A DNA stretch of 64,000 nucleotides, taken from contig CAZKCA010000004.1 in the NCBI GenBank assembly GCA_964551495.1, positions 15,439 to 79,438 on the forward strand, written 5' to 3'. The stretch comes from an uncultured Candidatus Saccharibacteria bacterium. Lineage in GTDB: Bacteria > Patescibacteriota > Minisyncoccia > Phycocordibacterales > DATDWN01. This document shows, piece after piece, positions 8,153-61,974 of the stretch; position 1 is the stretch's first letter, and every line of letters begins with the position of its first letter. A program made the position numbers and the translations under genes. The notes below the pieces were generated by a model. That model was not told the DNA's origin. It ran no database searches and saw only the letters and a list, made by a program, of their open reading frames with translations.

Positions 8153-9352
8153 TTAATTTATATTATTAATAGACTTTCTTCTGCTATATAAATATAACAA
8201 TATAATACAAACAAGTAAAAAACCTAAGAAATATAGCCAGTATTTTTGCACAAAATCCATTACATTAGGAGGATTTATATCTATACCTACTTCCCTTATG
8301 TTTCCAGCATTATCAAAAGCTCTAACTATTACATGCAATTTTGATCCAGTTTTTATCGGAACCTGAAAAGGACTTTCTGATTCAACAAAAACAGGAGAGA
8401 CCGTAAGTGGTTCTGTTTTATCAATTATTCCAACTTCGTATCTATTTATGCCTGATAAATTATCCGTAGTAAAAAATGATACCAATACCCTCTCTACTAC
8501 TATAGTACTTGCCAATAAATAATTTACCTCTGGCTCAAACATAGCAGGAGGATTTGTATCTATTTTTATAATATAGGAACCGGTCTGTCCCCATATTCCA
8601 TTTTTATTTGATTTTATATGAAAATACCAAACACCATCCTCTAAATCTTGAAATTGAATAGTTGTATCTTCTGTATCAACTGTGTTATCAGGAATTGTAT
8701 TTGGTTGATTGTCTAGCACATAACTAAATCCAGAAACCCCTCCCTCTTTCTCCCATGATAATATTGGATTATTATTCTTAGACCAATCACCTTCTACAGG
8801 ATGAGTTTCAGAAAAAATATTAACTCCAATAGGTGGCTTAGATACAATAAAATAATCTGATCTGCCTAAATTTACCCTTGCTTCACTACCTAAACCATCG
8901 TTCAACAAAACCTTTGATCCTGAATCTATATAAACTGAAGCCTTTCCTGTTGACTTTGCTTTAAAAGTAATTACCCCCACCAAACCTGAAGAAGTTTTTA
9001 TACCCCCAGGAATAACACCAACATAACTTGCTGTACCTAGTGTATTGTTAAAAACAGGTGGTTCTACCCACACACCAATAATTGAGGTTCCCCCAGAAGG
9101 TTTTACTATAGACAACTTATTTGGATCAAATTTTATTTTTATTTCTACACCATTCACACTCTGATCTTTGGTATCAATTAAAATAGGAACCTCGAAGGTT
9201 GATTCTTGAACAAAAGAACCGCTAGATGGAGATAGAGATAGTGTAACTTTAGGTACTAAGTTGTCTGCATCTATATCAATAGTTTGAGCAAAAGAAACAT
9301 CATTAAAAACTAATGAGCAAAAAACGATTATTAATAAAATTAATTTTTTCAT
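8153..9352 (-). CDS. Cell-surface protein with cohesin-like domain and C-terminal TM anchor.
   Basis: Signal peptide. The ~140-aa block KVTLSLSPSSGSF...VNGVEIKIKFDPNKLSI...GVIPGGIKTSSGLVGVITFKAK...LLNDGLGSE has a cohesin-like pattern. C-terminal helix YWLYFLGFLLVCIILLYLYSRRK. Paralogous to the next two genes. Confidence 0.4.
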   Translation of the reverse strand: MKKLILLIIVFCSLVFNDVSFAQTIDIDADNLVPKVTLSLSPSSGSFVQESTFEVPILIDTKDQSVNGVEIKIKFDPNKLSIVKPSGGTSIIGVWVEPPVFNNTLGTASYVGVIPGGIKTSSGLVGVITFKAKSTGKASVYIDSGSKVLLNDGLGSEARVNLGRSDYFIVSKPPIGVNIFSETHPVEGDWSKNNNPILSWEKEGGVSGFSYVLDNQPNTIPDNTVDTEDTTIQFQDLEDGVWYFHIKSNKNGIWGQTGSYIIKIDTNPPAMFEPEVNYLLASTIVVERVLVSFFTTDNLSGINRYEVGIIDKTEPLTVSPVFVESESPFQVPIKTGSKLHVIVRAFDNAGNIREVGIDINPPNVMDFVQKYWLYFLGFLLVCIILLYLYSRRKSINNIN

Positions 9353-13497: not shown

Positions 13498-14601
13498 TTA
13501 GAAGTTAGCTGTGGCTACATATGTTAATGTAGCAGAATAAGAACCAGCTTCTGTGTTTGAGGCTATGTTGGCCAAATATCTTACAGAATAAGTGGTGTTA
13601 GCTGTCGCTCCAGTAGCACTAGCCACTTCATCTGGAAAGGCAGCTGTATCAAAAGCGAAACCAGAAGCAGCATAGGGAGCTGAAACTGTTCCAGAGCCAC
13701 CAGAAGCTGTCATTCTAAGTCCAAATTGTTCTGTTCCAACAGAAGAGGAAGAGTTTGTGTTGCCTATAGCATTTATAGTCGCCCCTCCACAAGCAGAACA
13801 AGTAAGTGTTGCTCCGTTAACTGTCATTGTGTAGCCATTAGCAGCATTTGTTCCAACAACCAAATTATGGGCTTCTGTCTCTGAACCTGTACCAGAAGTA
13901 TCTCCTGTTGCATACCTAGCTGCAGAAGCTGAAAGTGGCCCAAAGCCAATTGAGTTATCGGATATAGTAAATGTAAGAGATTGGGCAACAGTAGCTGATA
14001 CAGAAACCTGATCATCGTTCAATATATTTATTGTTATGTCACCAGAATCACCAAATGCTCCACTAATTGATATTGAGTAACTTGCAGCAGAAGCATGATT
14101 TGTTATTTGTGTGTTACCGGTTACTCCTGTTGTAGCATTTGTTCCTATTTCTATTTGTATACAAGCATTAGCTGCAATAGCGGCCGCACCAACACCATCT
14201 GAAGGAGCTGTCAAAGTTATAACTTGACCAGAAAGAGCTGCCCCCCAAGCAGTAGCTGAAGGTGTAGATGCTAACGTTTCGTTATTTGTAAAAGAAACCC
14301 CTGAACAACTAGATTGGCTTCCTGCAGAATGAGCCAAGTCTATATCTTCAAAATCTAGTGAGTTCATATTGAAACCAGATGGAAAAGTTATAGTTATAGT
14401 GTCAGTATTTTCTGCTGCACCAGTTGGAGTTCTAAATACTATAGTATGATTCGAAGCTGTACTAACTTTTTGGCTAGACATTATATCTGATGCATTTGCT
14501 ATTGAAGCAGCAGACACTGTTTTAAAAGAAACCAAAGAAAAAATGAGCGCAACCACAAGAGATACACTCAAAAAATTTTTCAAAAATGAAATATTGATCA
14601 T
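13498..14601 (-). CDS. Secreted Ser/Thr/Ala/Gly-rich surface protein. Its C-terminal ~160-aa domain is shared with the giant neighbouring protein (possible WxL-like wall-binding domain).
   Basis: Signal peptide. The C-terminal block SITFTISDNSIGFGPLSASAARYATGD...TLTCSACGGATINAIG...GSYSATLTYVATANF is about 60% identical to the C-terminus of the 14677-18504 protein. Confidence 0.5.
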   Translation of the reverse strand: MINISFLKNFLSVSLVVALIFSLVSFKTVSAASIANASDIMSSQKVSTASNHTIVFRTPTGAAENTDTITITFPSGFNMNSLDFEDIDLAHSAGSQSSCSGVSFTNNETLASTPSATAWGAALSGQVITLTAPSDGVGAAAIAANACIQIEIGTNATTGVTGNTQITNHASAASYSISISGAFGDSGDITINILNDDQVSVSATVAQSLTFTISDNSIGFGPLSASAARYATGDTSGTGSETEAHNLVVGTNAANGYTMTVNGATLTCSACGGATINAIGNTNSSSSVGTEQFGLRMTASGGSGTVSAPYAASGFAFDTAAFPDEVASATGATANTTYSVRYLANIASNTEAGSYSATLTYVATANF

Positions 14602-14676
14602 AAATTAATTATTAAATTGTTGAGTTAATTGTAACATTAGAGTTAAAAACAATAAAAAAATCTGTGGATATCTTTT

Positions 14677-17600
14677 TTAAAAAGTGGCGGTGATTGTATA
14701 AGTTATAGTTGCATTATAATTTCCTGCTGAAGTTGCGCTGTCTATATTACCAATATAACGAACCCCAAAAACAGTTTCTACTTCATCACCATCACCTGAA
14801 AAAATCAAATCAGGAAAAGCAGATGTATCTAATGCCCAATCTGAACTGTTATAAGGAGAAGCGACGGTTCCATTTCCAGAACTAACCGTTGCTCTTAATC
14901 CAAACTGTTTTGTTCCAACAGAAGAAGGTGTAGAAACGCCACCTATAGCATCTATAGTTGCCCCTCCACAAGCTGTACAAGTAAGAGTTGTTCCGCTGAC
15001 AGTTATTACATATCCTCCAGAGGCATTTGTTGAAGCAGATATTGTATGAGCTGAAGCAGAATCAGATCCAGAACCATTACTATCCCCAGTTGCATATCGA
15101 GCAGCAGAAGGATTTAGAGTTCCAAAACCTATAGAATTATCGGATATTGAAAAAGTGATAGACTGAGCTCCTCCTGTTGAAGCAGTTGTGATTTCAGGAT
15201 ATGAAGAATAACTATTTAAAGCCGAGCCATTTGACTTTACCACCCTAAAACAAAAAGTTGTGTCTGGATCAGCACCGTTATCAATCAAAGAAAAATCCCA
15301 TTTACCATCTTGACCAGAAGGTATGGCTGACTGACTATTTGTAAAATTATTTGACTCTTCGTATGTCTGATTAACAATTGTATCTCCGCTATGGGTTGGA
15401 TCATTAGCATTTGAAGTTAAAGCCGATCCATCAGAAGGAGTTGCGTTATCATTAAAAGCTATAACTGTTGCCCCTGTCACATCAGTATAAGAAGCTGGAC
15501 TACCACCAGATGGAGAAGCACAGCTTCCAGCACCCTTATCAACAAACTGCAATTTAAAACTTTGTCCATTTTGAGCAACCTGATTACTTCCTACATGAAT
15601 TAAAGTTCTGAGTCTAAAAGGATCACCAGAAGAAGTTAAAGTAGCAGGAGTGTCTTGTAGAGCTAGAGCAGAACCAACATCGGTTGAATTAGAGTTTGCA
15701 AAGAAACGATATGCCGACTGTTCAAAAGTTGGTAGTATATACCTTTCCGAAGCTACTGCTATCTTTGTTAGGGGTAATCCCGTCCTAGCTACAGGACCAC
15801 CCCAAAGAGCCGAGGCTGTTCCCCATGTCTGAGATCCTCCAGTTAATCTATTTTCTGTGATATCCATTGATGCTGCTGCCGAACTTTCGTAGGCAACTAA
15901 AAACATTGCACCAGAATTAGGATGAGCATTAAGCAACATAAAATCAGTATCATCTCCCTGAGTTGTGGCAGTCCCCCACGAAGAAGTTGGACCATTCCAA
16001 AGTTTTCTAGAAATTGTGTTTCCGTCTCCATAAACAAGCCAAGCATCATCTGGATTACTTGAATGAGTCTCAAACTTTATATCAAATGCCTGAGAAGCGT
16101 TTGTCTCCGCTGCTGCTGTATGTTCCGTATGCACAGCACTCCAAGCAGTTCCGCTCCATATGAAAGTGTTTAAGTCAGACCCACCATCAAGTGAACCATA
16201 CAATATCTGGTTAGAAGTAGAAGAACCTGTATTAGGAGCTAATATCATCCAGTTATTTACCGCTCCAGCGTTTGGGTTATCTAGCAAAGTAGCAGCAGAC
16301 AAAACTCCACCAGAATAAGTTCTATAATATTGATCCGTTGAAACCGAATCTCCCCAAATAAACATTGCATCTCCCGATGCGGTCTCATAAGCAACATCTA
16401 TAGATTTTTCAGTAGCAATAGAAGCAGTTGCATCCCAAACAGCAGCTGTTCCCATATTGTCCCAAGCACTGCCTGTCCAGCGCATACCATAAACATCAGT
16501 ATTTGCATCTAAAACAATCATTGCTAACTCATCTGAGTTGGGTCTTGAAGCAAGCTCAATCCAGTTTGGTCTTCCAGTCGTGGGTATGTCTATGTTTGTA
16601 GGACCTGTCCAACCAGTTCCATTCCACACATGATAGTTTGGATCAGCGGTTCCATCTCCTGTCACAACAATGGCATCCCCTGAAGTATTTTCATACTCAA
16701 TATCAAATCCTCTATACAAAGATTGAACATCTCTGCTCCCTTGGGCATTATTCATAGTGTTTAACAGAGTAGCTTGACCCCAAACAGAATTTTGCCCATC
16801 CCAAACTTGAGCTTCTACTCTTCCACTGTTACCAGCTGTTAAAAGTATTGCCTCATCTCTTGTTGGAGAAGTTTTTAAAACCATATGCCTTAATTCACCA
16901 GACACAGGAGATGTACTAGCTGGACTACCCCAAGCTGAACCCGTCCATCTTCTATATTGTGGATAAGTAACAGAACTTTCGTCTGTATAAGCCATCATTG
17001 CTTCTGTAGAGGAATTATAAGACTGAGAAGCAAGTACTGATCTACTTGCTCCCATATTTCTTTTAACCGGACCACCCCATATAACAGCAGCTGTTCCCCA
17101 AGTCTGAGATCCTCCCGTTAATCTATTTTCTGTAATATCATCCGTAGCCGCAGTATCATCTTCATAAACAAGAGAAAATACAGCACCAGAATTAGGTTGG
17201 GCATTCAATGAAATTACAGCTGTATCATCTCCTTGAGTGGTAGCAGTTTGCCAAGCAGAAGTGCCTCCATCCCACAACCTCCTTGAGACAGTAGTAGAGT
17301 TTCCCCACCAAAGCCACGCATCATTTGGATTTGAACTATGTGTTTCAAATACAATATCAAAATTCATATCAACAATATCTTCTGTTCCCGCACTATGCTC
17401 TGCATGCACTGCACTCCAAGCAGTTCCACTCCATATAAAAGTGTTAAGGTCTGCACCGGCATCCAAAAGCCCGATCATTATTTGATCCGACCCGGAAGTA
17501 GGGTTTGATGAAAGCTTTAACCAATGAACAACACCACCATTGTTTGCATTGGTAACGTTTGTCACCGCACCCAAAACCCCTCCCGAATAAGCCCTGTATC

Positions 17601-18504
17601 TAAAATGAGCTGTAGCTGCAGTTGCAAATCCCCAGGCAAACATTATATCTCCAGATGTTGTCTCAAAAGCAACATCTACAGCCTTTTTAGTTCCTATTGA
17701 CCCAGAAGCGTCCCATACAACAGCTGTTCCCATATTATCCCAGGCGCTACCTGTCCAACGCATACCATAAACATCGTTATTTGAATCAATAGAAATCATT
17801 GCCAACTCATCGGAACCGGGCCTAGACGCTAATTCTATCCAATAAGGCCTCCCTGTTGTTGGTATGTCTATGTTTACTCCAGAAGCCCAGCTTGTCCCAT
17901 TCCATACATAATAATTTGGATCAGCACTACCATCTGCTGCCACAACTATGGCATCCCCAGAAGTTTGTTCATACTCAACATCAAATCCTCTGTATAAAGA
18001 ACCTCCATCTGGACTACCATTTACATCATTTAATGTAACTAATGTAGTAGGAGTACCCCAAGAAGATCCATTAAATATTTGAGCCTGAACTTCACCTGTG
18101 TTTGTTAAAACAACAAGCACTGCTTCATCTCTTGTGGGAGCATACTTTAACTGCATATGTCTTATATCTGTTCCGTTTACATCAGAAGCAGATAACTCAG
18201 ATCCCCAGGCAGATCCATTCCATACTCTATACTTTGGAGTAGAAGTTCCTGATAAAGTATCATAAACAACCATAGCATCAGAAAGACCATCAGCATATGT
18301 TGTTTTATTTGTCATTTTTGAAAAATACTCATCAACAACATTTGAATCCTTTGATGCTAAATACATCTGATCAACAACATTTGAATCTCTTAGATAACTC
18401 AAGAAAGCCTCAAAAGGAGCTCCAAACCAAAAAATCCCAATAATTAAAAAGGAAGTGAATGCGACTTTAATTATTTTTTTAAAGAATTTAGTATTCGGAA
18501 ACAT
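14677..18504 (-). CDS. Giant (1275 aa) secreted repeat protein. It has two tandem ~400-aa Trp/Gly-rich propeller-like repeat units plus the shared C-terminal domain.
   Basis: N-terminal TM/signal. Residues ~80-480 and ~515-915 are near-duplicates (KYRVWNGSAWGSELSASDVNGTDIRHMQLKYAPTRDEAVL... versus QYRRWTGSAWGSPASTSPVSGELRHMVLKTSPTRDEAIL...). This shows as a ~1.2-kb DNA tandem repeat. The C-terminus matches the 13498-14601 protein. Confidence 0.55.
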   Translation of the reverse strand: MFPNTKFFKKIIKVAFTSFLIIGIFWFGAPFEAFLSYLRDSNVVDQMYLASKDSNVVDEYFSKMTNKTTYADGLSDAMVVYDTLSGTSTPKYRVWNGSAWGSELSASDVNGTDIRHMQLKYAPTRDEAVLVVLTNTGEVQAQIFNGSSWGTPTTLVTLNDVNGSPDGGSLYRGFDVEYEQTSGDAIVVAADGSADPNYYVWNGTSWASGVNIDIPTTGRPYWIELASRPGSDELAMISIDSNNDVYGMRWTGSAWDNMGTAVVWDASGSIGTKKAVDVAFETTSGDIMFAWGFATAATAHFRYRAYSGGVLGAVTNVTNANNGGVVHWLKLSSNPTSGSDQIMIGLLDAGADLNTFIWSGTAWSAVHAEHSAGTEDIVDMNFDIVFETHSSNPNDAWLWWGNSTTVSRRLWDGGTSAWQTATTQGDDTAVISLNAQPNSGAVFSLVYEDDTAATDDITENRLTGGSQTWGTAAVIWGGPVKRNMGASRSVLASQSYNSSTEAMMAYTDESSVTYPQYRRWTGSAWGSPASTSPVSGELRHMVLKTSPTRDEAILLTAGNSGRVEAQVWDGQNSVWGQATLLNTMNNAQGSRDVQSLYRGFDIEYENTSGDAIVVTGDGTADPNYHVWNGTGWTGPTNIDIPTTGRPNWIELASRPNSDELAMIVLDANTDVYGMRWTGSAWDNMGTAAVWDATASIATEKSIDVAYETASGDAMFIWGDSVSTDQYYRTYSGGVLSAATLLDNPNAGAVNNWMILAPNTGSSTSNQILYGSLDGGSDLNTFIWSGTAWSAVHTEHTAAAETNASQAFDIKFETHSSNPDDAWLVYGDGNTISRKLWNGPTSSWGTATTQGDDTDFMLLNAHPNSGAMFLVAYESSAAASMDITENRLTGGSQTWGTASALWGGPVARTGLPLTKIAVASERYILPTFEQSAYRFFANSNSTDVGSALALQDTPATLTSSGDPFRLRTLIHVGSNQVAQNGQSFKLQFVDKGAGSCASPSGGSPASYTDVTGATVIAFNDNATPSDGSALTSNANDPTHSGDTIVNQTYEESNNFTNSQSAIPSGQDGKWDFSLIDNGADPDTTFCFRVVKSNGSALNSYSSYPEITTASTGGAQSITFSISDNSIGFGTLNPSAARYATGDSNGSGSDSASAHTISASTNASGGYVITVSGTTLTCTACGGATIDAIGGVSTPSSVGTKQFGLRATVSSGNGTVASPYNSSDWALDTSAFPDLIFSGDGDEVETVFGVRYIGNIDSATSAGNYNATITYTITATF

Positions 18505-24964: not shown

Positions 24965-25029
24965 TATATTAAATTATATCATTAAAATAATTAGAAATGG
25001 CGACACCCTTTTAGTATCGCCATTTTCAG

Positions 25030-25233
25030 CTAGTTTTCACTACCAGAAGACTGTTGTAAGCCTCTGGCAAGATCAAAAACGTGGCCAATCACTCCTCCTT
25101 CGTGATGTAAATCTGCCTTAACTTCGGCAGACATAACCATCTTGATTGCCTTTGAGATATTGCCTGGACTAGGAGGCAACTCCTCATTTGCTATTGCGAA
25201 GTCAACGACCGCCTGATGACTTACTGTTGACAT
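25030..25233 (-). CDS. Small hypothetical protein (67 aa from MSTVSHQ) in a GC-elevated segment.
   Basis: GGAGGAGGT SD lies 7 nt upstream of the internal Met. Local GC is clearly higher than the genome background. Confidence 0.35.
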   Translation of the reverse strand: MSTVSHQAVVDFAIANEELPPSPGNISKAIKMVMSAEVKADLHHEGGVIGHVFDLARGLQQSSGSEN

Positions 25234-25429
25234 AGGAGTTACCTCCTCCAATATAATTATATTACTTATAAAAATTCAAACAACACAAACTGTTGAAAAA
25301 AATTTCGAGTCCAAGTCGCAAAGCAATGCTTTGCTTCTGACATAAAAAAGCCAAAGCTTTTTTGCTGGCCGTCTCGAGCTAGAACCTTTTGATACCAAGC
25401 CCTGCTTGACCGTTCACCTATATTATACA

Positions 25430-25939
25430 CTACTCCCACGACGCGTCTCGTGCGGCTTCAAGAATAGCGATATCCCGCGGCACCATATATTCTTTTGATT
25501 CAATCTGCTCTGCTTTGCTTCTCTTAATAATATCGAGTGCTTCGTTATACGGAAGCCACACCACCTCAAATCCTTCTGCAATTTCAGATTCAGTAAAGTC
25601 AGGTATTCCTTTTTCACCTACAACCTTGGCGAAGTAGCAATATGAAATTTGATGGAGATTACAAAACCTGCGCCACTCATTCACTAATCCGATCTCACCC
25701 ATAACCTCCACATCACATCCGATTTCTTCTCGACACTCTCGTTTGAGAGCAGTTACTTTGTTTGTATCGTCATCCAAGCCACCACCAGGAAGCTTGTAGT
25801 AATCGGTTTTGATGGCATGTAGAAGAGCTATATTATTTTCTTTATCGAAAACGACAGCGCGAGCAGCTTCTCTGGTACTATAAGTCTTTACCTCCTCTTC
25901 GGATACATTTTCGGGATTAAGTAAGATGAGTTCTTTCAT
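25430..25939 (-). CDS. NUDIX hydrolase.
   Basis: Nudix box GGGLDDDTNKVTALKRECREEIG (Gx5Ex7REUxEExGU). The gene is GC-elevated. Confidence 0.75.
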   Translation of the reverse strand: MKELILLNPENVSEEEVKTYSTREAARAVVFDKENNIALLHAIKTDYYKLPGGGLDDDTNKVTALKRECREEIGCDVEVMGEIGLVNEWRRFCNLHQISYCYFAKVVGEKGIPDFTESEIAEGFEVVWLPYNEALDIIKRSKAEQIESKEYMVPRDIAILEAARDASWE

Positions 25940-26142
25940 AAATTAATTATATCGCTTTCTGTGATTTTGCTAAGCACACGCCTCGGGCACTATAACCTAT
26001 CACGAGTTGGCTGGCAGACTTGGAATCTTCACACCTGGGAAACCCACGGTTTTCCCAATCCTTCCTCCACGGGAAACTCCCGTTTCCCGACCCTTTCCCA
26101 GTTCGAGTCCAAGTCTGAACAACAAAACAGCTCCGCTGTTTG

Positions 26143-26213
26143 CTGCCAGACTTGGACTCGAACCAAGATAACCTCCTCCAGAGGGAGGTGTCCTACCATT
26201 AGACGATCTAGCA
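26143..26213 (-). tRNA. tRNA-Gln(CUG).
   Basis: Manual fold: acceptor TGCTAGA/TCTGGCA, D arm GTCT-AATGGTA-GGAC, anticodon stem CCTCC/GGAGG with loop CTCTGGA (anticodon CUG), T arm CTTGG-TTCGAGT-CCAAG. Confidence 0.7.
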
Positions 26214-26468
26214 ATACAAAAACAATACTCCAAAATTTATTTTTTTACAATGAAAAAGGCGCCGTCCACACACTAAGGACGGCGCCTGAACCAGAGGAGT
26301 CGTAATGGCTTAAAGCCCTCCTCTAGCTCTTCACTGTATTATAGCACTTTTCAATAAAAAAGTAAAGCCCCATGTGTCCTTCACTACGCATGGGGCTTTG
26401 GGAAGAAAGCTGGTAGAGAAATCTCCCCAATCTGGCAAGATACTACCATATTTTAAAAAATAAAAAAA

Positions 26469-26493
26469 CTCTCACGGGACAAGCCTGTGAGAG
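26469..26493 (-). terminator. Intrinsic terminator of pyrG (ctctcac...gtgagag followed by a U-run on the minus strand).
   Basis: 7-bp stem directly downstream of the pyrG stop, followed by TTTTTTTATTTTTT on the minus strand. Confidence 0.6.
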
Positions 26494-26537
26494 GTGGGTT
26501 AGTTCTGAAATGTCTGAATAGAGTATAGTAAAAAATT

Positions 26538-32125: not shown

Positions 32126-32710
32126 CTAACGAACTTTTCCAGTTTTTTGATATAGTTTCCAAATCGGAAACCATTCATTTCTGAAAAGTCCAAGTTCGAT
32201 AAGGTCACGGTATTTACCATCTTTAAAAACATGTTTTCTTCTTGTACCCTCAACTTTATATCCGCAGTGAAGACTGTAGTTTAAACTACGCTTGTTATAA
32301 GAAATAACAGTAGAGCAAACTTTATGAAGATTCAGATCATCAAAGATATATTTTAGAAGATGCATTTTTGCATCTGTTCCAAAACCTTTTCCCCAAAAAT
32401 CTTTCTCCCCTATTATTGCTCCCGTCGTACAGGTTCTGTGTACCCAATCTATTCTATGGACACCCATAACCCCAATAAACTGACCTTCTTTGGTTTCTAT
32501 ACCGAAAACAATGTTCTCCTCATCTTTTTCCAACCCCTCTATCCATACCTCCTCAAAATGAACGGTTCTGGGAAAAACATTGGAAACAAGAAATCTAACT
32601 TCTGGATCATTGATCCAGGTGGCCAACTTGTTTGAGTCAGCTTTTTCCAGAGGACGAAGATTGGTTATCTTGCCCGACAAAAAAACAGATTGTTTGTTTT
32701 CGTTCGACAT
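32126..32710 (-). CDS. GNAT family N-acetyltransferase (RimJ/RimL-like).
   Basis: KGFGTDAKMHLLKYIFDDLNLHKV acetyl-CoA binding region and a ~190 aa Acetyltransf_3-like layout. Confidence 0.65.
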   Translation of the reverse strand: MSNENKQSVFLSGKITNLRPLEKADSNKLATWINDPEVRFLVSNVFPRTVHFEEVWIEGLEKDEENIVFGIETKEGQFIGVMGVHRIDWVHRTCTTGAIIGEKDFWGKGFGTDAKMHLLKYIFDDLNLHKVCSTVISYNKRSLNYSLHCGYKVEGTRRKHVFKDGKYRDLIELGLFRNEWFPIWKLYQKTGKVR

Positions 32711-32929: not shown

Positions 32930-33400
32930 TTATACATATTCTCCATCAATAAAAAATCTTGATAAATTTGGTTCATGTTTTAACTTTTTATAAAACTCAA
33001 CAAAAAGTTTTGACATCCTAAACCACTTACCTTCTGGGATTTCATCCAAATAAAACCATTGCCAATCTTCAGCTTTATGAGGCTCCGGATTTGGAGGTAT
33101 TTCTTCTGACTCTGCTACAGCCACAAAACCTATATGAATCGGTCTTTCTTTTCCATAATAAAAAGTGTTTGACATACATAGAAATTGTGAATCTTTTATT
33201 TTAATTCCAGTTTCTTCCTCCCCTTCTCTAGCTACAGCCATAAAAGCATTTTCCTTGTTTCCATAGTCAACAGTCCCACCAGGAAGTTGCCAACCTCCTA
33301 AATCTGGACCTTTCTTCCTTTTAGAAAGTAGAACTTTGTTTTTTTCCGGATTTAAAATAACTAAACCACAACCAACATAGACTTTATGATCTTCTTTCAT
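32930..33400 (-). CDS. NUDIX hydrolase.
   Basis: Nudix box LPGGTVDYGNKENAFMAVAREGEEETGIKI. Confidence 0.7.
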   Translation of the reverse strand: MKEDHKVYVGCGLVILNPEKNKVLLSKRKKGPDLGGWQLPGGTVDYGNKENAFMAVAREGEEETGIKIKDSQFLCMSNTFYYGKERPIHIGFVAVAESEEIPPNPEPHKAEDWQWFYLDEIPEGKWFRMSKLFVEFYKKLKHEPNLSRFFIDGEYV

Positions 33401-34173: not shown

Positions 34174-34314
34174 ATTTTTATATATTTATCAAAAATCTCT
34201 TTCTTACGAGCCAAATATAAACCCGTATTTATACCATTATACATAAAATAATATAATTTCAAAGTGATCTTTGCTATTCCGTTTTTTTAAATTTTTTGAT
34301 ATATTGCTTCTATT

Positions 34315-34391
34315 GTCGGCGTAGCTCAGTTGGTTAGAGCGTGGGACTCATAAGCCCAAGGTCGGAGGTTCGATCCCCCCCGCCGACACCA
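34315..34391 (+). tRNA. tRNA-Met(CAU) (elongator or Ile2-type), CCA encoded.
   Basis: GTCGGCG-TA-GCTC-AGTTGGTTA-GAGC...loop CTCATAA...GGAGG-TTCGATC-CCCCC-CGCCGAC-A-CCA. Close to E. coli elongator tRNA-Met. Confidence 0.75.
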
Positions 34392-34572
34392 GAGTGTCTA
34401 GGAGAAAGCTCTGGGAGAGCTTTCGTGGGGGATCGAAGCCCGATTGAGCTATTTTATGAGCTAGCTAAATAAAATAGCCAATTGGGATACTGATCCTGTA
34501 AGGATCGATCCTTCAATACAGAACCGACAAGCAGGAAAATATTTGTCGAAGATTCCCTCCCCCGCCGACACA
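34392..34572 (+). repeat. tRNA-abutting structured element, copy A (family shared with 34822-35016, 52756-53087 and 61734-61901).
   Basis: Starts right after the CCA of tRNA-Met. Contains hairpin gctattttat-GAGCTAGCTA-ataaaatagc and module UACUGA-ucc-UGUAA-gga-UCGAUCC. Ends with cccccgccgacaca, a copy of the tRNA-Met 3' end. Confidence 0.55.
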
Positions 34573-34579
34573 AAAATAT

Positions 34580-34792
34580 ATGAAAAAAATACAATATTAC
34601 ACACTACGAATATTTTTAACAATGATGGTTTTATGTGCCAGTCTAATGCTACATATGATATGGAGAGGTGGACCAGATGAGTTTGATGTAATAAATCAAT
34701 TGACCATTAGTTCTTTCGTAATAGGATTGGGATCATTTCTTATTTGGATTACTACTATTATAATTGAAGTGAAAAATAATATATTGAAGTAG
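34580..34792 (+). CDS. Small two-TM hypothetical protein (70 aa).
   Basis: ORF starts immediately after element A and has hydrophobic helices. No SD. Confidence 0.3.
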   Translation: MKKIQYYTLRIFLTMMVLCASLMLHMIWRGGPDEFDVINQLTISSFVIGLGSFLIWITTIIIEVKNNILK

Positions 34793-34821: not shown

Positions 34822-35016
34822 TAGGGACCAGGATTTTTTCCATAATTTAACTCGCCGTCGCTCATTAAATTATGGAACGCAGATTTTCGACAAGCTCTAC
34901 TGAGTTTGTAAACCGAAAATCTGTGCAAATCCTGACATAAACTGCTCCCAGCAGTTTACTGTCCGCGCAAAATATAAAATAAAAACCGCCCTTTGGGGCA
35001 GTTTTTATTTTGATTG
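34822..35016 (-). repeat. tRNA-abutting structured element, copy D (downstream of minus-strand tRNA-Met).
   Basis: Read on the minus strand it has an imperfect hairpin plus U-run, then the perfect 10-bp stem cagauuuucg/cgaaaaucug enclosing acaagcuc-uacu-gaguuuguaaac, then ccauaauuuaa-UGAGCGACGGCGAG-uuaaauuaugg. It ends aauccuggucccuac, which copies the T-loop/acceptor 3' end of tRNA 35017-35087. Confidence 0.55.
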
Positions 35017-35087
35017 TTGCGGGACCAGGATTTGCACCTGGGCCTACAGGTTATGAGCCTGTCGAGCTACTACTGCTCTATCCCGCT
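35017..35087 (-). tRNA. tRNA-Met/Ile2(CAU).
   Basis: AGCGGGA-TA-GAGC-AGTAGTA-GCTC-G-ACAGG-CTCATAA-CCTGT-AGGC-CCAGG-TGCAAAT-CCTGG-TCCCGCA-A. There is an A1-A72 mismatch. The anticodon stem is not initiator-like. Confidence 0.6.
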
Positions 35088-52666: not shown

Positions 52667-52753
52667 GGAGACGTGGCTGAGTGGTCGAAAGCACCTCACT
52701 GCTAACGAGGCAGGGTCTAAAAGCCCTCCAGGGTTCGAATCCCTGCGTCTCCG
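52667..52753 (+). tRNA. tRNA-Ser(GCU), class II with long variable arm.
   Basis: GGAGACG-TG-GCTGAGTGGTCGAAAGC...loop CTGCTAA...variable CAGGGTCTAAAAGCCCTCC-AGGG-TTCGAAT-CCCTG-CGTCTCC-G. Confidence 0.75.
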
Positions 52754-52755
52754 CA

Positions 52756-52911
52756 GGAGAAATTTAACAAAGTTAAATTTAGTAGAGCAGGTTTTGTAAT
52801 CAAAACCGTCGCGAGGATTCGAAGCCCGATTGAGGTATTTTATGAGCTTACGAAATAAAATACCCAATTGGGGTACTGAAACTGTAAGTTTCGAATCCCT
52901 GCGTCTCCGCA
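52756..52911 (+). repeat. tRNA-abutting structured element, copy B.
   Basis: Hairpin gguauuuuau-GAGCUUACGA-aauaaaauacc (compensatory to copy A). Module UACUGA-aac-UGUAA-guu-UCGAAUCC. Ends with cctgcgtctccgca, an exact copy of the tRNA-Ser 3' end. Confidence 0.55.
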
Positions 52912-53087
52912 ACAGCAGATTGAGTTGAGTACATCTCAACAAAATCTGATGTCGGTAGAAGTTAGGGATGAGAAAGACGGAGGCGGTATACAAGCGAGCA
53001 AAGCGAGGCTTGTCGCCGAGTCGGGGTCGAAAGTTCTTATGAGCGGAGCGAATTAGAAACTTGTGACCGAATCCCTGCGTCTCCGCC
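52912..53087 (+). repeat. tRNA-abutting structured element, copy C (divergent), in tandem with B.
   Basis: GC-richer. Hairpin aaguucuuau-GAGCGGAGCGA-auuagaaacuu. Ends with gaatccctgcgtctccgcc, a third copy of the tRNA-Ser 3' end. Confidence 0.45.
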
Positions 53088-61696: not shown

Positions 61697-61733
61697 AGGG
61701 GTATTATACAGATGATTTTAAAAAGGCACACCA

Positions 61734-61901
61734 GGATTCGACCCTTACAGGGTCAGTACTGAGCACCAGGACTCTCCCTCGAAATTTTTTCGTCGCCACT
61801 CAAAAATTTCTGGGCACCGGTTTGTCGACAAACTCTGGTGAGTTTGTAAACCGACAAACCGTTCGAATCCTTAATACAAAGCTACGCTTTGTACTTACGT
61901 G
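61734..61901 (-). repeat. tRNA-abutting structured element, copy E (downstream of tRNA-Ile).
   Basis: On the minus strand: hairpin plus U-run, then the 10-bp stem cgguuugucg/cgacaaaccg (compensatory to copy D) enclosing acaaacuc-ugguga-guuuguaaac, then UACUGA-ccc-UGUAA-ggg-UCGAAUCC. It ends with cuggugugcc, a copy of the tRNA-Ile T-arm/acceptor 3' end. Confidence 0.55.
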
Positions 61902-61974
61902 TGCACGTACCAGGATTCGAACCTGGGACCGGTCGTGTATAAGACGACTGCTCTACCAACTGAGCTATACGTGC
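61902..61974 (-). tRNA. tRNA-Ile(UAU).
   Basis: GCACGTA-TA-GCTC-AGTTGGTA-GAGC-A-GTCGT-CTTATAC-ACGAC-CGGTC-CCAGG-TTCGAAT-CCTGG-TACGTGC-A. Fully canonical cloverleaf. Confidence 0.8.

What the first reader, a model, noticed from the sequence alone, without database searches (positions are those of the whole stretch)
25030..26213. GC-elevated 1-kb islet (NUDIX gene plus small ORF) bracketed by repeats derived from the tRNA-Gln 3' end, including a perfect 17-nt inverted copy next to the tRNA
The 14-nt string ttcgagtccaagtc (T-loop plus acceptor 3' strand of tRNA-Gln) occurs on the + strand at 25304-25317 and again at 26102-26115. The two copies bracket a segment whose GC content is visibly higher than the surrounding genome. 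That segment carries a NUDIX hydrolase and a small SD-equipped ORF. The second copy extends to 17 nt (gttcgagtccaagtctg) and is a perfect inverted repeat of the 3' end of the adjacent minus-strand tRNA-Gln (26147-26163), only 29 nt away. The tRNA precursor could therefore fold its 3' trailer back on its own T-arm/acceptor strand. Further perfect hairpins (cgggaaac/gtttcccg, aaacagc/gctgttt) lie between the copies. Whatever generated it, this looks like the scar of a tRNA-targeted integration or inversion delivering foreign (GC-richer) DNA.
Basis: seen in the sequence. Interest (0 to 1): 0.55.

Follow-up and report, generated by a model that had tools for sequence, protein, structure and literature searches.

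The report
Mobile cassette stack behind tRNA-Gln
Behind the tRNA-Gln gene of this tiny-genome (CPR/Patescibacteria) bacterium lies a recently inserted 778-bp unit: a foreign NUDIX gene plus a folded 130-nt "tRNA-tail module" that copies the tRNA's own 3' end, and sister modules follow at least 13 kinds of tRNA gene in related genomes without any recombinase nearby.

Summary
The 14-mer occurs 3 times against 0.01 expected, and the 17-nt inverted copy is perfect. GC is 44.6% in the inserted unit against 33.7% for the window.

The insertion idea is supported. A same-species contig (L216) has tRNA-Gln with no NUDIX gene. The window carries exactly 778 extra bp (25364-26141), starting right after tRNA position 74.

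The bracketing is wrong, however. The 25304 copy and the small ORF are also present at the empty site. The insert ends in a degenerate tRNA-Gln 3' end (25364-25386).

The 17-nt inverted copy is not an inversion scar. It is the left arm of a 130-190-nt module: a terminator hairpin, an antisense copy of the tRNA 3' end, two covarying hairpins and a sense copy. Such modules follow 5 of the 6 tRNAs in this window and tRNAs of at least 13 isotypes in relatives. Their arms always match the adjacent tRNA. They match no Rfam family, and no recombinase lies nearby.

The NUDIX gene is 93% identical in DNA to one behind tRNA-Gln in a genome with unrelated flanks.

Best reading: small non-autonomous elements stacked at tRNA 3' ends. 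The enzyme that moves them is unknown.

The parts
26142..26213 (-). tRNA-Gln(CTG). Its 3' end reads ..G73-C74-AA, so no CCA is encoded.
   Evidence: ARAGORN; Rfam tRNA, 58.8 bits.
25364..26141 (-). The 778-bp unit that is present here and absent from the same-species contig L216. It consists of module M1 plus the NUDIX element. The junction is ambiguous within the 4 nt CAGC.
   Evidence: Alignment A3; GC 44.6% against 33.7% for the window.
26118..26141 (-). M1 trailer: a terminator-like hairpin AAACAGC-GGA-GCTGTTT followed by a T-rich tail.
   Evidence: Terminator scan; sequence. Equivalent hairpins open most modules.
26101..26117 (-). M1 left arm: an antisense copy (CAGACTTGGACTCGAAC) of tRNA positions about 53-69.
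   Evidence: 17/17 complementary (I2). It also pairs with 26015-26027 (I18).
26070..26089 (-). M1 hairpin 1 (CGGGAAAC-GGGA-GTTTCCCG).
   Evidence: Sequence. Compensatory changes in the L002 and L037 homologues.
26036..26057 (-). M1 hairpin 2 (TGGGAAA-ACCGTGGG-TTTCCCA).
   Evidence: Sequence. A compensatory G:C to T:A change in L002 and L037. The same hairpin plus a sense copy closes the HIT-gene cassette in L002 and L005.
26010..26024 (-). M1 right arm: a sense copy of the tRNA 3' end (TCCAAGTCTGcCAGC, 14/15), followed by CA so that ...G-CCA is encoded.
   Evidence: D4: 22 nt, 86%.
25940..26009 (-). Left end ('tail') of the NUDIX element, CAACTCGTGATAGG..., with a promoter-like TTAGCA-16-TATAAT (25973-25946) that ends 7 nt before the ATG.
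   Evidence: Promoter scan. The region 26024-25940, which includes the sense arm, is 87% identical to L081. Similar tails follow tRNA-Gln or its copies in L032, L054, L057, L078, L086 and L087.
25430..25939 (-). NUDIX hydrolase gene (169 aa), the cargo.
   Evidence: PF00293, E=4e-13; 540 homologues, mostly Patescibacteria; GC3 z=+4.3; 92.9% nt identity to L081.
25364..25429 (-). Right end of the NUDIX element. It includes the degenerate tRNA-Gln-like 3' end GGTTCTAGCTCGAGACGGCCAGC (25364-25386).
   Evidence: Homologous ends close different cargos in L081, L078, L217, L086 and L014.
25304..25363 (-). M2, the left arm of an older module that is also present at the empty site. The body and the sense copy are missing.
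   Evidence: I1; alignment A3. Same architecture as the left arms in L009, L045 and L030.
25030..25236 (-). Small ORF (67 aa from the ATG, with an SD sequence). It is not part of the 778-bp insert. Its composition is foreign, so it may be cargo of the M2 element.
   Evidence: Present in L216 and L217; no Pfam family; a single homologue cluster; GC3 39%.
61730..61900 (-). Sister module behind tRNA-Ile(TAT): antisense arm 61861-61871, sense arm 61730-61741.
   Evidence: covariance model R1, 87.9 bits, E=1e-22, at 61755-61875.
34824..35015 (-). Sister module behind tRNA-Met (35016-35087): antisense arm 34924-34935, sense arm 34824-34836.
   Evidence: R1, 29.6 bits, E=1e-6.
34392..34571 (+). Sister module behind tRNA-Met (34315-34391): antisense arm 34427-34437, sense arm 34559-34571.
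   Evidence: Empty-site counterpart in L001 at 1340-1411.
52755..53086 (+). Two tandem sister modules behind tRNA-Ser (52667-52754): sense copies at 52890-52910 and 53068-53086, the second followed by CA (giving an encoded CCA) and a terminator.
   Evidence: weak R1 hit at 52961-53087.

Best explanation
**Shown**
- The tRNA-Gln 3' end is an insertion hot spot that holds a stack of small mobile units.
- The newest is a 778-bp unit (25364-26141), which a same-species strain lacks. It has two parts:
  - a 132-nt "tRNA-tail module" (M1);
  - a single-gene NUDIX element with its own promoter-like site, ending in a degenerate tRNA-Gln 3' end.
- Behind it lies an older remnant: the M2 left arm plus the small ORF.
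- Modules of this family follow tRNA genes of at least 13 isotypes. Each has, in order, a terminator-like hairpin, an antisense copy of the adjacent tRNA's positions about 53-73, a conserved two-arm core with covarying pairs, and a sense copy of positions about 59-74.

**Inferred mechanism**
- The units integrate by conservative site-specific recombination between the tRNA 3' segment (T-loop to position 73/74) and the copy each unit carries.
- The incoming unit supplies a trailer and a terminator for the tRNA. It pushes the former 3' end, with its CCA and native trailer, downstream. Repeated events therefore stack units.
- The recombinase acts in trans and is not identified.
- The antisense and sense arms can pair with each other, or the antisense arm can pair with the tRNA end. 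Either pairing rebuilds a duplex copy of the tRNA acceptor/T-arm in a single strand. I take this fold, with the conserved core, to be the cis-acting recognition structure.
For: **Filled and empty sites**
- Window against L216: 778 bp exactly at C74.
- L002 against L005: a 157-nt module.
- Window tRNA-Met1 against L001: a 180-nt module.

**Different cargo at the same junction**
- L217 carries other genes that end in a homologous pseudo-tRNA end, abutting the same M2.

**Horizontal transfer**
- The NUDIX CDS is 92.9% identical to L081 and the whole element 90.0%, while the flanks are 39-45% identical and the module interior 51%.
- None of 80 pyrG-syntenic relatives has this NUDIX behind tRNA-Gln.
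- The composition is atypical.

**Replacement of the tRNA 3' end**
- tRNAs that carry a module end in ..N73-C-AA or similar. The distal sense copy often keeps CCA and the native trailer or terminator.

**Stacking and partial copies**.

**Module family**
- 29 tRNA-adjacent modules were found in the held loci (four of them the same Campbellbacteria locus on redundant contigs) and 14 more in metagenomes. The isotypes are Gln, Thr, Ile, Met, Ser, Asp, Tyr, Arg, Trp, Lys, Glu, Phe and Ala.
- The arms follow each tRNA's own sequence.
- In the core, 19 of 23 pairs show compensatory changes. 90.4% of cells are paired against 62.7% in shuffles. The covariation score is 0.728 against 0.216 (0 of 500 shuffles) and 0.12-0.24 with slid partners.
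- The covariance model gives 23 hits in 0.9 Mb, all on the tRNA strand of the loci.
Against: - No integrase, transposase or reverse transcriptase lies in or next to any module or cassette examined. The enzymology is therefore pure inference.
- Covarying hairpins, conserved loops and G-T wobbles on the tRNA-sense strand are not expected of a double-stranded att site. They fit an RNA gene or a single-stranded intermediate.
- Polarity is not proven for the window/L216 pair: L216 could be a deletion derivative.
- Exchange between strains could rely on flanking homology alone.
- The sense arm of M1 has a mismatch that would break acceptor pair 3-70.
- How the arms become matched to 13 different tRNAs is unexplained.
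Confidence: 0.55

Rival explanations
1. The module is first of all a structured non-coding RNA gene. It would be a tRNA-like RNA whose closing helix imitates the acceptor/T-arm minihelix, so RNase P, RNase Z and the CCA-adding enzyme would process it out of read-through tRNA transcripts. Its conserved core would carry the function. The insertions and cargo would be secondary.
For: - Strong covariation and conserved loops or junctions.
- G-T wobbles on the tRNA-sense strand: CCCGATTG/CAATTGGG and GGTCGC/GTGACC.
- The extra hairpin sits exactly at the acceptor/T-stem junction (65|66), where the D and anticodon arms leave a real tRNA.
- The antisense T-loop reads TTCGAAC, itself a T-loop-like motif.
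- The sense arm is often followed by CCA.
- All copies are co-oriented with the tRNA.
Against: - A terminator-like hairpin with a T-tract precedes the module.
- The antisense acceptor strand and the junction hairpin are absent from many copies, such as the Thr, Ala and Trp modules.
- Truncated or decayed copies are common: M2, L030, L145, and the Ile sense arm.
- Presence varies between close strains.
- Cores differ between orthologous sites of close relatives.
- There is no Rfam match.
Confidence: 0.25
2. The locus turns over only by homologous recombination after DNA uptake. Conserved flanks (pyrG and tRNA-Gln on one side, M2 and the small ORF on the other) let strains swap whatever lies between, with no site-specific recombination. 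The tRNA-derived repeats would be old debris.
For: - L216, L217 and the window share 97-99% identical flanks but differ in between.
- Patescibacteria commonly carry DNA-uptake genes (own knowledge, not tested here).
Against: - It cannot explain the same NUDIX element behind tRNA-Gln in a genome with unrelated flanks.
- It cannot explain precise module-only insertions at C74 with duplication of the tRNA end at several different tRNAs.
- It cannot explain arms that match each tRNA.
Confidence: 0.15
3. The window shows the ancestral arrangement, and L216 lost M1 plus NUDIX by deletion between the tRNA end and the pseudo-tRNA end. There would then be no recent insertion in this lineage.
For: - The two junction sequences resemble each other: GTCTGGCAGC and GACGGCCAGC, 7 of 10.
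- Hairpins could favour replication slippage.
Against: - L001, the closest species-level relative, and 79 other syntenic genomes lack the NUDIX.
- L217 has a different cargo at the same junction.
- The NUDIX composition is foreign.
- Even if this were true, the unit would still be a mobile, excisable segment.
Confidence: 0.15
4. One reading: a single tRNA-targeted integration or inversion whose scar is the pair of plus-strand 14-mers bracketing the NUDIX gene and the small ORF.
For: The repeats are real and non-random. The GC shift is real.
Against: - The 25304 copy and the small ORF are present at the empty site.
- The two copies are both inverted relative to the tRNA and belong to two different modules.
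- The same inverted arm recurs behind other tRNAs.
Confidence: 0.05

Closest known systems
tRNA-targeting integrative islands stacked at one tRNA, such as the tycheposons of Prochlorococcus (bioRxiv 10.1101/2020.12.28.424599, read)
   Same: - Integration into the 3' part of a tRNA gene.
- Elements flanked by partial tRNA copies.
- Successive integrations push older elements further in.
- Degenerate remnants, adaptive cargo and strain-level gain and loss.
   Different: - No integrase or replication module in any unit seen here.
- The units are tiny (130 bp to a few kb, often a single gene or none).
- They carry an additional antisense copy of the tRNA end and a conserved, covarying folded core.
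- The same core family serves at least 13 tRNA isotypes.
Integron gene cassettes and attC sites
   Same: - Single-gene units, mostly co-oriented, stacked at one attachment point.
- A boundary element conserved in secondary structure rather than in sequence, formed by imperfect inverted repeats and plausibly used as a folded single strand.
- Several adjacent units can be gained or lost together.
- Some units carry no ORF.
   Different: - No IntI gene or attI next to the array.
- The arms derive from the adjacent tRNA, not from the RYYYAAC/GTTRRRY cores.
- The NUDIX element has its own promoter-like site.
- The attachment point is a tRNA 3' end.
Casposons (Cas1-dependent transposons, some of which insert at tRNA 3' ends with 14-15-bp target duplications; own knowledge)
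   Same: A 15-21-bp direct duplication of the tRNA 3' end flanks the insert.
   Different: - No Cas1 or polymerase genes and no terminal inverted repeats.
- In L014 the sense copy of a second module does not duplicate the sequence that precedes it. The copy therefore belongs to the element and is not a target duplication.
Folded single-stranded attP of CTX-type phages (IMEX elements that use host XerCD; own knowledge)
   Same: - A hairpin formed by inverted copies rebuilds a duplex imitation of the chromosomal target.
- The element needs no recombinase of its own.
   Different: The target is a tRNA 3' end rather than dif. No phage genes are present. Nothing has been tested experimentally.
tRNA-like structures (tmRNA tRNA-like domain, viral TLS, mascRNA)
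   Same: An acceptor/T-stem-like closing helix. A hairpin at the place of the D and anticodon arms. A T-loop-like TTCGAAC. Sometimes an encoded CCA.
   Different: - No Rfam match, with tmRNA_permuted and YrlA only at chance level.
- The body emerges from the T-loop position.
- There is no tag reading frame.
- The acceptor-like helix is optional.

Membership tests
tRNA-targeting integrative genomic island (integrase-mediated) | Insert lies in or at the 3' part of a tRNA gene and is flanked by a direct repeat of the partial tRNA | tested here: met
   Sense copy at 26010-24 and a degenerate copy at 25364-86. The same is seen at other tRNAs.
tRNA-targeting integrative genomic island (integrase-mediated) | An uninterrupted (empty) site exists in a close relative | tested here: met
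   L216; L005 against L002; L001 tRNA-Met.
tRNA-targeting integrative genomic island (integrase-mediated) | The element encodes its own tyrosine or serine recombinase | tested here: not met
   No such domain in the ORFs of the locus or next to other modules in the window. The ORF translations of the 2.5-kb and 5-kb cargo elements in L153 and L078 show no evident recombinase by eye; these were not run against Pfam.
tRNA-targeting integrative genomic island (integrase-mediated) | Foreign composition or horizontally shared cargo | tested here: met
   GC3 z=+4.3; 92.9% nt identity to L081, whose flanks are unrelated.
Integron cassette / attC | An IntI integrase gene with attI and Pc adjacent to the array | tested here: not met
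   pyrG lies upstream of tRNA-Gln. No recombinase in the window ORFs scanned.
Integron cassette / attC | attC with R''/L''...L'/R' boxes and a GTTRRRY core | tested here: not met
   The arms are the tRNA 3' end and its complement (GTTCGAG... does not fit GTTRRRY). Read from the sequence.
Integron cassette / attC | Boundary site conserved in structure, not in sequence | tested here: met
MITE | Terminal inverted repeats and a short target duplication | tested here: not met
   The module termini (AAACAGCGG... and ...GTGAAGAT) are unrelated. The duplication is 15-21 nt.
Casposon | Cas1 integrase, terminal inverted repeats and a 14-15-bp duplication at a tRNA 3' end | tested here: not met
   Only the length of the duplication fits. 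No Cas1 and no terminal inverted repeats.
Curated RNA families (Rfam 15: tRNA-like, tmRNA, group I intron, ribozymes, riboswitches) | Match at or near the gathering score | tested here: not met
   Only the tRNAs pass. Module regions give chance-level hits.
NUDIX hydrolase (PF00293) | NUDIX fold domain | tested here: met
   50 bits against a cut-off of 21.1.
NUDIX hydrolase (PF00293) | Nudix box GX5EX7REUXEEXGU and hydrolase activity | tested here: inconclusive
   RECREEIGC fits REUXEEXGU and the G is in place. The E of GX5E is a T, with a D next to it (translation). Substrate and activity cannot be tested with these tools.
Intrinsic terminator | GC-containing hairpin followed by a T-tract directly after the tRNA | tested here: met
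   26141-26125(-) with tail TGTTGTTCAG. Function was not tested.

The most novel reading that the evidence does not exclude
The 130-190-nt tRNA-tail modules are an undescribed class of non-autonomous elements that home to tRNA genes. Their folded single strand (RNA or ssDNA) imitates the acceptor/T-arm of the very tRNA they sit behind. Together with single-gene units such as the NUDIX element, they form an integron-like cassette system in CPR bacteria. In that system tRNA 3' ends serve as the attachment site and no element-encoded integrase is needed. The arms would be renewed by a templated step, which would explain how one core family serves at least 13 tRNA isotypes.
Probability: 0.3. Interest if true: 0.85.

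Novelty: new variant of a known kind. Interest (0 to 1): 0.7.

Why it matters
CPR/Patescibacteria have tiny genomes with few recognised mobile elements, so how they exchange genes is an open question. This locus gives three concrete things:

1. A strain-level gain or loss of a single accessory gene at a tRNA 3' end.
2. The same gene cassette at the same tRNA in a genome with unrelated flanking genes.
3. A widespread, structured, recombinase-less module tied to tRNA 3' ends, which annotation and Rfam do not capture.

If the modules are the cis-acting sites of a cassette system, tRNA genes in these bacteria would act like integron platforms. If they are RNAs, they are a new tRNA-mimicking RNA class. 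Either way the question can now be tested directly, with junction-spanning reads and small-RNA ends.

There is also a practical point. The modules put tRNA fragments and GC-rich hairpins behind most tRNA genes, which can mislead island finders and tRNA annotation.

Tried and rejected
- **Exact-protein look-ups** for the window's NUDIX and pyrG found nothing.
- **Viral contigs.** Scans with two core patterns gave only chance hits in coding regions, mostly of high-GC contigs.
- **Plasmids and phages.** BLAST of the inserted unit found no match.
- **Rfam.** Searches at gathering and at permissive thresholds gave no family for the module regions.
- **Small ORF.** No Pfam family and only one homologue cluster.
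- **Literature.** Six searches found no description of such modules. The Patescibacteria tRNA-intron preprint concerns group I introns at anticodon position 35/36 and is unrelated.

Readings considered and rejected:
- **A second tRNA or tmRNA gene:** ARAGORN and Rfam find none.
- **MITE or casposon:** no terminal inverted repeats and no Cas1.
- **IS200/IS605-type insertion:** the target is N73-C74 of any tRNA, not a fixed tetranucleotide.
- **Retroviral-type primer-binding site:** the antisense arm lacks the TGG complement of CCA and, in L032, continues into the module's own trailer.
- **tRNA intron:** the first copy already makes a complete tRNA.
- **GC-rich block at 13.5-18.5 kb as a second island:** its GC3 is normal, so the shift reflects amino-acid composition.
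Full report
**1. Context**

The window is about 34% GC. The genes around the finding are ftsE, ftsX, pyrG, tRNA-Gln, NUDIX, a small ORF, a membrane protein, DUF1905 and VanY, all on the minus strand. The eighty genomes with the most similar pyrG are Zambryskibacteria, Paceibacteria and other Patescibacteria MAGs. This is therefore a CPR bacterium. The closest species-level representative (L001) is 91% identical in PyrG protein and about 81% in DNA.

**2. Checking the observation**

All stated repeats, hairpins and coordinates are correct.
- The 14-mer occurs three times against 0.01 expected.
- The 17-nt inverted repeat is perfect, with a 29-nt spacer.
- GC is raised: 44.6% in the later-defined insert against 33.7% overall. 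The NUDIX GC3 z-score is +4.3, the most atypical of 44 ORFs.

Three further copies of the tRNA 3' end had been missed:
- a sense copy at 26010-26024 (14/15);
- a degenerate sense copy at 25364-25386;
- the extension of the 25304 copy into an antisense acceptor strand interrupted by a hairpin.

**3. The empty site**

The small ORF has a single homologue cluster. Its contigs gave the decisive comparison.

- **L216** has flanks 98.4% and 96.7% identical to the window. It runs pyrG, tRNA-Gln, then directly AAAAAAGCTTTAGCTTTTTT..GACTTGGAATCGAA, then the small ORF, the membrane protein, DUF1905 and VanY.
- **The window** differs from L216 by exactly 778 bp (25364-26141), inserted right after tRNA position 74. 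The two junctions share CAGC.
- **L217**, another strain, has different genes in the same place. They end in a homologous pseudo-tRNA end (GGTTCTAGCTCAAGTTCGCCAGC) that abuts the same downstream sequence.

Three conclusions follow:
- The site turns over between strains.
- The 25304 repeat and the small ORF are not part of the new insert.
- The insert's right boundary is a degenerate tRNA-Gln 3' end, not the 14-mer.

**4. What the insert is made of**

*(a) The NUDIX element (25364-26009).*
- It has a conserved leader with a promoter-like TTAGCA-16-TATAAT that ends 7 nt before the ATG. The NUDIX gene and the pseudo-tRNA end follow.
- A Campbellbacteria-labelled genome (L081-L084) has quite different neighbours (serS, dus, ruvB, peptidase M15). 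There the same element follows tRNA-Gln plus a module.
- Identity to L081 is 92.9% over the CDS and 90.0% over the whole element. It is 39-45% in the flanks and 51% in the module interior.
- None of the 80 pyrG-syntenic relatives has this NUDIX at the site.
- More distant homologues also sit behind a tRNA-Gln or a tRNA 3' fragment (L086, L087-89).
- This is horizontal transfer of a single-gene unit that targets tRNA-Gln.

*(b) Module M1 (26010-26141)* consists, in order, of:
- a terminator-like hairpin;
- the 17-nt antisense arm;
- two hairpins;
- the sense arm followed by CA, so that CCA is encoded.

**5. The module is a family**

Downstream of tRNA-Gln in about 14 of about 50 relatives there is the same layout, and the arms follow each genome's own tRNA sequence. 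L002 and L005 are a clean filled/empty pair for a module alone.

The family is not specific to tRNA-Gln:
- In the window, 5 of 6 tRNAs carry a module: Gln, two Met, Ser (two in tandem) and Ile. Housekeeping genes flank these modules, and no recombinase does.
- Across the held loci and a metagenome pattern scan, modules follow Gln, Thr, Ile, Met, Ser, Asp, Tyr, Arg, Trp, Lys, Glu, Phe and Ala genes.

The interiors fall into a few related core types that do not depend on the tRNA.

For the commonest type, 20 sequences from 11 isotypes were aligned (alignment A2):
- 19 of 23 predicted pairs show compensatory changes.
- 90.4% of cells are paired against 62.7% in shuffles.
- The covariation score is 0.728 against 0.216 (0 of 500 shuffles) and 0.12-0.24 with slid partners.
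- A covariance model finds 23 copies in 0.9 Mb of loci, all on the tRNA strand of the loci, and the Ile and Met copies in the window.
- No Rfam family matches.

M1 belongs to a rarer type, shared with L002 and L037. Its two hairpins also show compensatory changes.

**6. Anatomy that bears on mechanism**

- The left arm is a palindromic partner of the tRNA's positions about 53-73 plus trailer, centred on the terminator loop (L145 and L192 are clear examples).
- Many copies have a stable hairpin inserted exactly at the acceptor/T-stem junction. The antisense arm and the sense arm can therefore form a tRNA-like acceptor/T helix with a side hairpin.
- tRNAs that carry a module have lost the encoded CCA, while the distal sense copy keeps CCA and the native trailer or terminator. 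This is what is expected if the incoming unit replaces the tRNA's 3' end and displaces the old one.
- Cargo genes lie between module parts or between tRNA-end copies: HIT and a second NUDIX in L002 and L005, three genes in L153, 5 kb in L078.
- A chimeric module behind tRNA-Arg in L192 has an Arg-specific acceptor arm but a Phe-type T arm.

**7. Interpretation**

- **Shown:** an insertion/excision hot spot at tRNA position 73/74, stacked units, horizontal transfer of the NUDIX unit, and a conserved folded module whose arms match the tRNA.
- **Inferred:** conservative site-specific recombination between the tRNA 3' segment and the copy carried by each unit, catalysed in trans. The folded module would be the cis-acting recognition structure, possibly used as a single strand as with integron attC or CTX attP.
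- **Against this inference:** no recombinase has been found anywhere near these units.
- **Main rival:** the module is a tRNA-mimicking RNA gene. Covariation, sense-strand G-T wobbles and the tRNA-like topology favour it. The preceding terminator, the optional acceptor helix, frequent truncation and strain-level presence or absence weigh against it. The two readings are not exclusive.
- **Unexplained:** how the arms become matched to so many tRNAs.

**8.

The inverted copy is a recurrent functional part rather than a scar, and the pre-tRNA fold-back is unlikely.

**9. Novelty**

The islet itself is a variant of tRNA-targeted integration with stacking, as described for tycheposons. The recombinase-less, structured module that matches its tRNA was not found in Rfam or in the searchable literature. 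It may be a new kind of element. I rate that at about 0.3.

Noticed in passing
window 34277-34791, compared with L001 1301-1642: The segment holding tRNA-Met (34315-34391), its module and a small membrane ORF is inverted relative to the closest relative L001, where the two tRNA-Met genes are in tandem. The breakpoints lie next to module sequences.
   Followed up: partly
window 26214-26537: The pyrG to tRNA-Gln spacer holds three strong hairpins (for example 26257-26287 and 26364-26399) and a promoter-like site at 26366-26338. It is nearly identical in L216 and partly conserved in L001. No Rfam match.
   Followed up: partly
window 13498-18504: A second GC-raised block (about 40%) covering two ORFs, one of 1275 aa with no Pfam domain. 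GC3 is normal (z about 0), so the shift reflects amino-acid composition rather than foreign DNA.
   Followed up: partly
window 32126-32710 and 32930-33400: An ORF with atypical GC3 (z=+2.8) lies next to a second, unrelated NUDIX gene (PF00293, E=7e-19). This may be another small acquired unit.
   Followed up: no
window 61901-61974: tRNA-Ile with anticodon TAT, which is uncommon in bacteria. It carries the best-scoring module of the window.
   Followed up: no
L001 8834-9070; L078 13016-13366: Small GIY-YIG nuclease-like genes sit directly behind tRNA-Gln in two relatives. In L078 the gene is flanked by a roughly 75-nt duplication of the tRNA end plus trailer.
   Followed up: partly
L017 4258-4430; L018 4011-4090: Second, aberrant tRNA-Gln-like sequences lie behind the real gene. 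One has a recognisable CTG anticodon stem-loop and a roughly 90-nt insertion before the T-arm.
   Followed up: no
L081 9370-10026: A weak Y1 (IS200-like, HUH) transposase hit about 4 kb downstream of the tRNA-Gln array in the Campbellbacteria locus. This is the only enzyme acting on single-stranded hairpin DNA seen near any array, and it may be coincidental.
   Followed up: no
L045, about 8530-8620: A run of N lies inside a tandem pair of tRNA-Gln modules. It is either masked or an assembly gap, so the second copy cannot be read completely.
   Followed up: no
window 24995-25025: A strong 13-bp terminator-like hairpin lies directly after the small ORF, before the membrane-protein gene.
   Followed up: no
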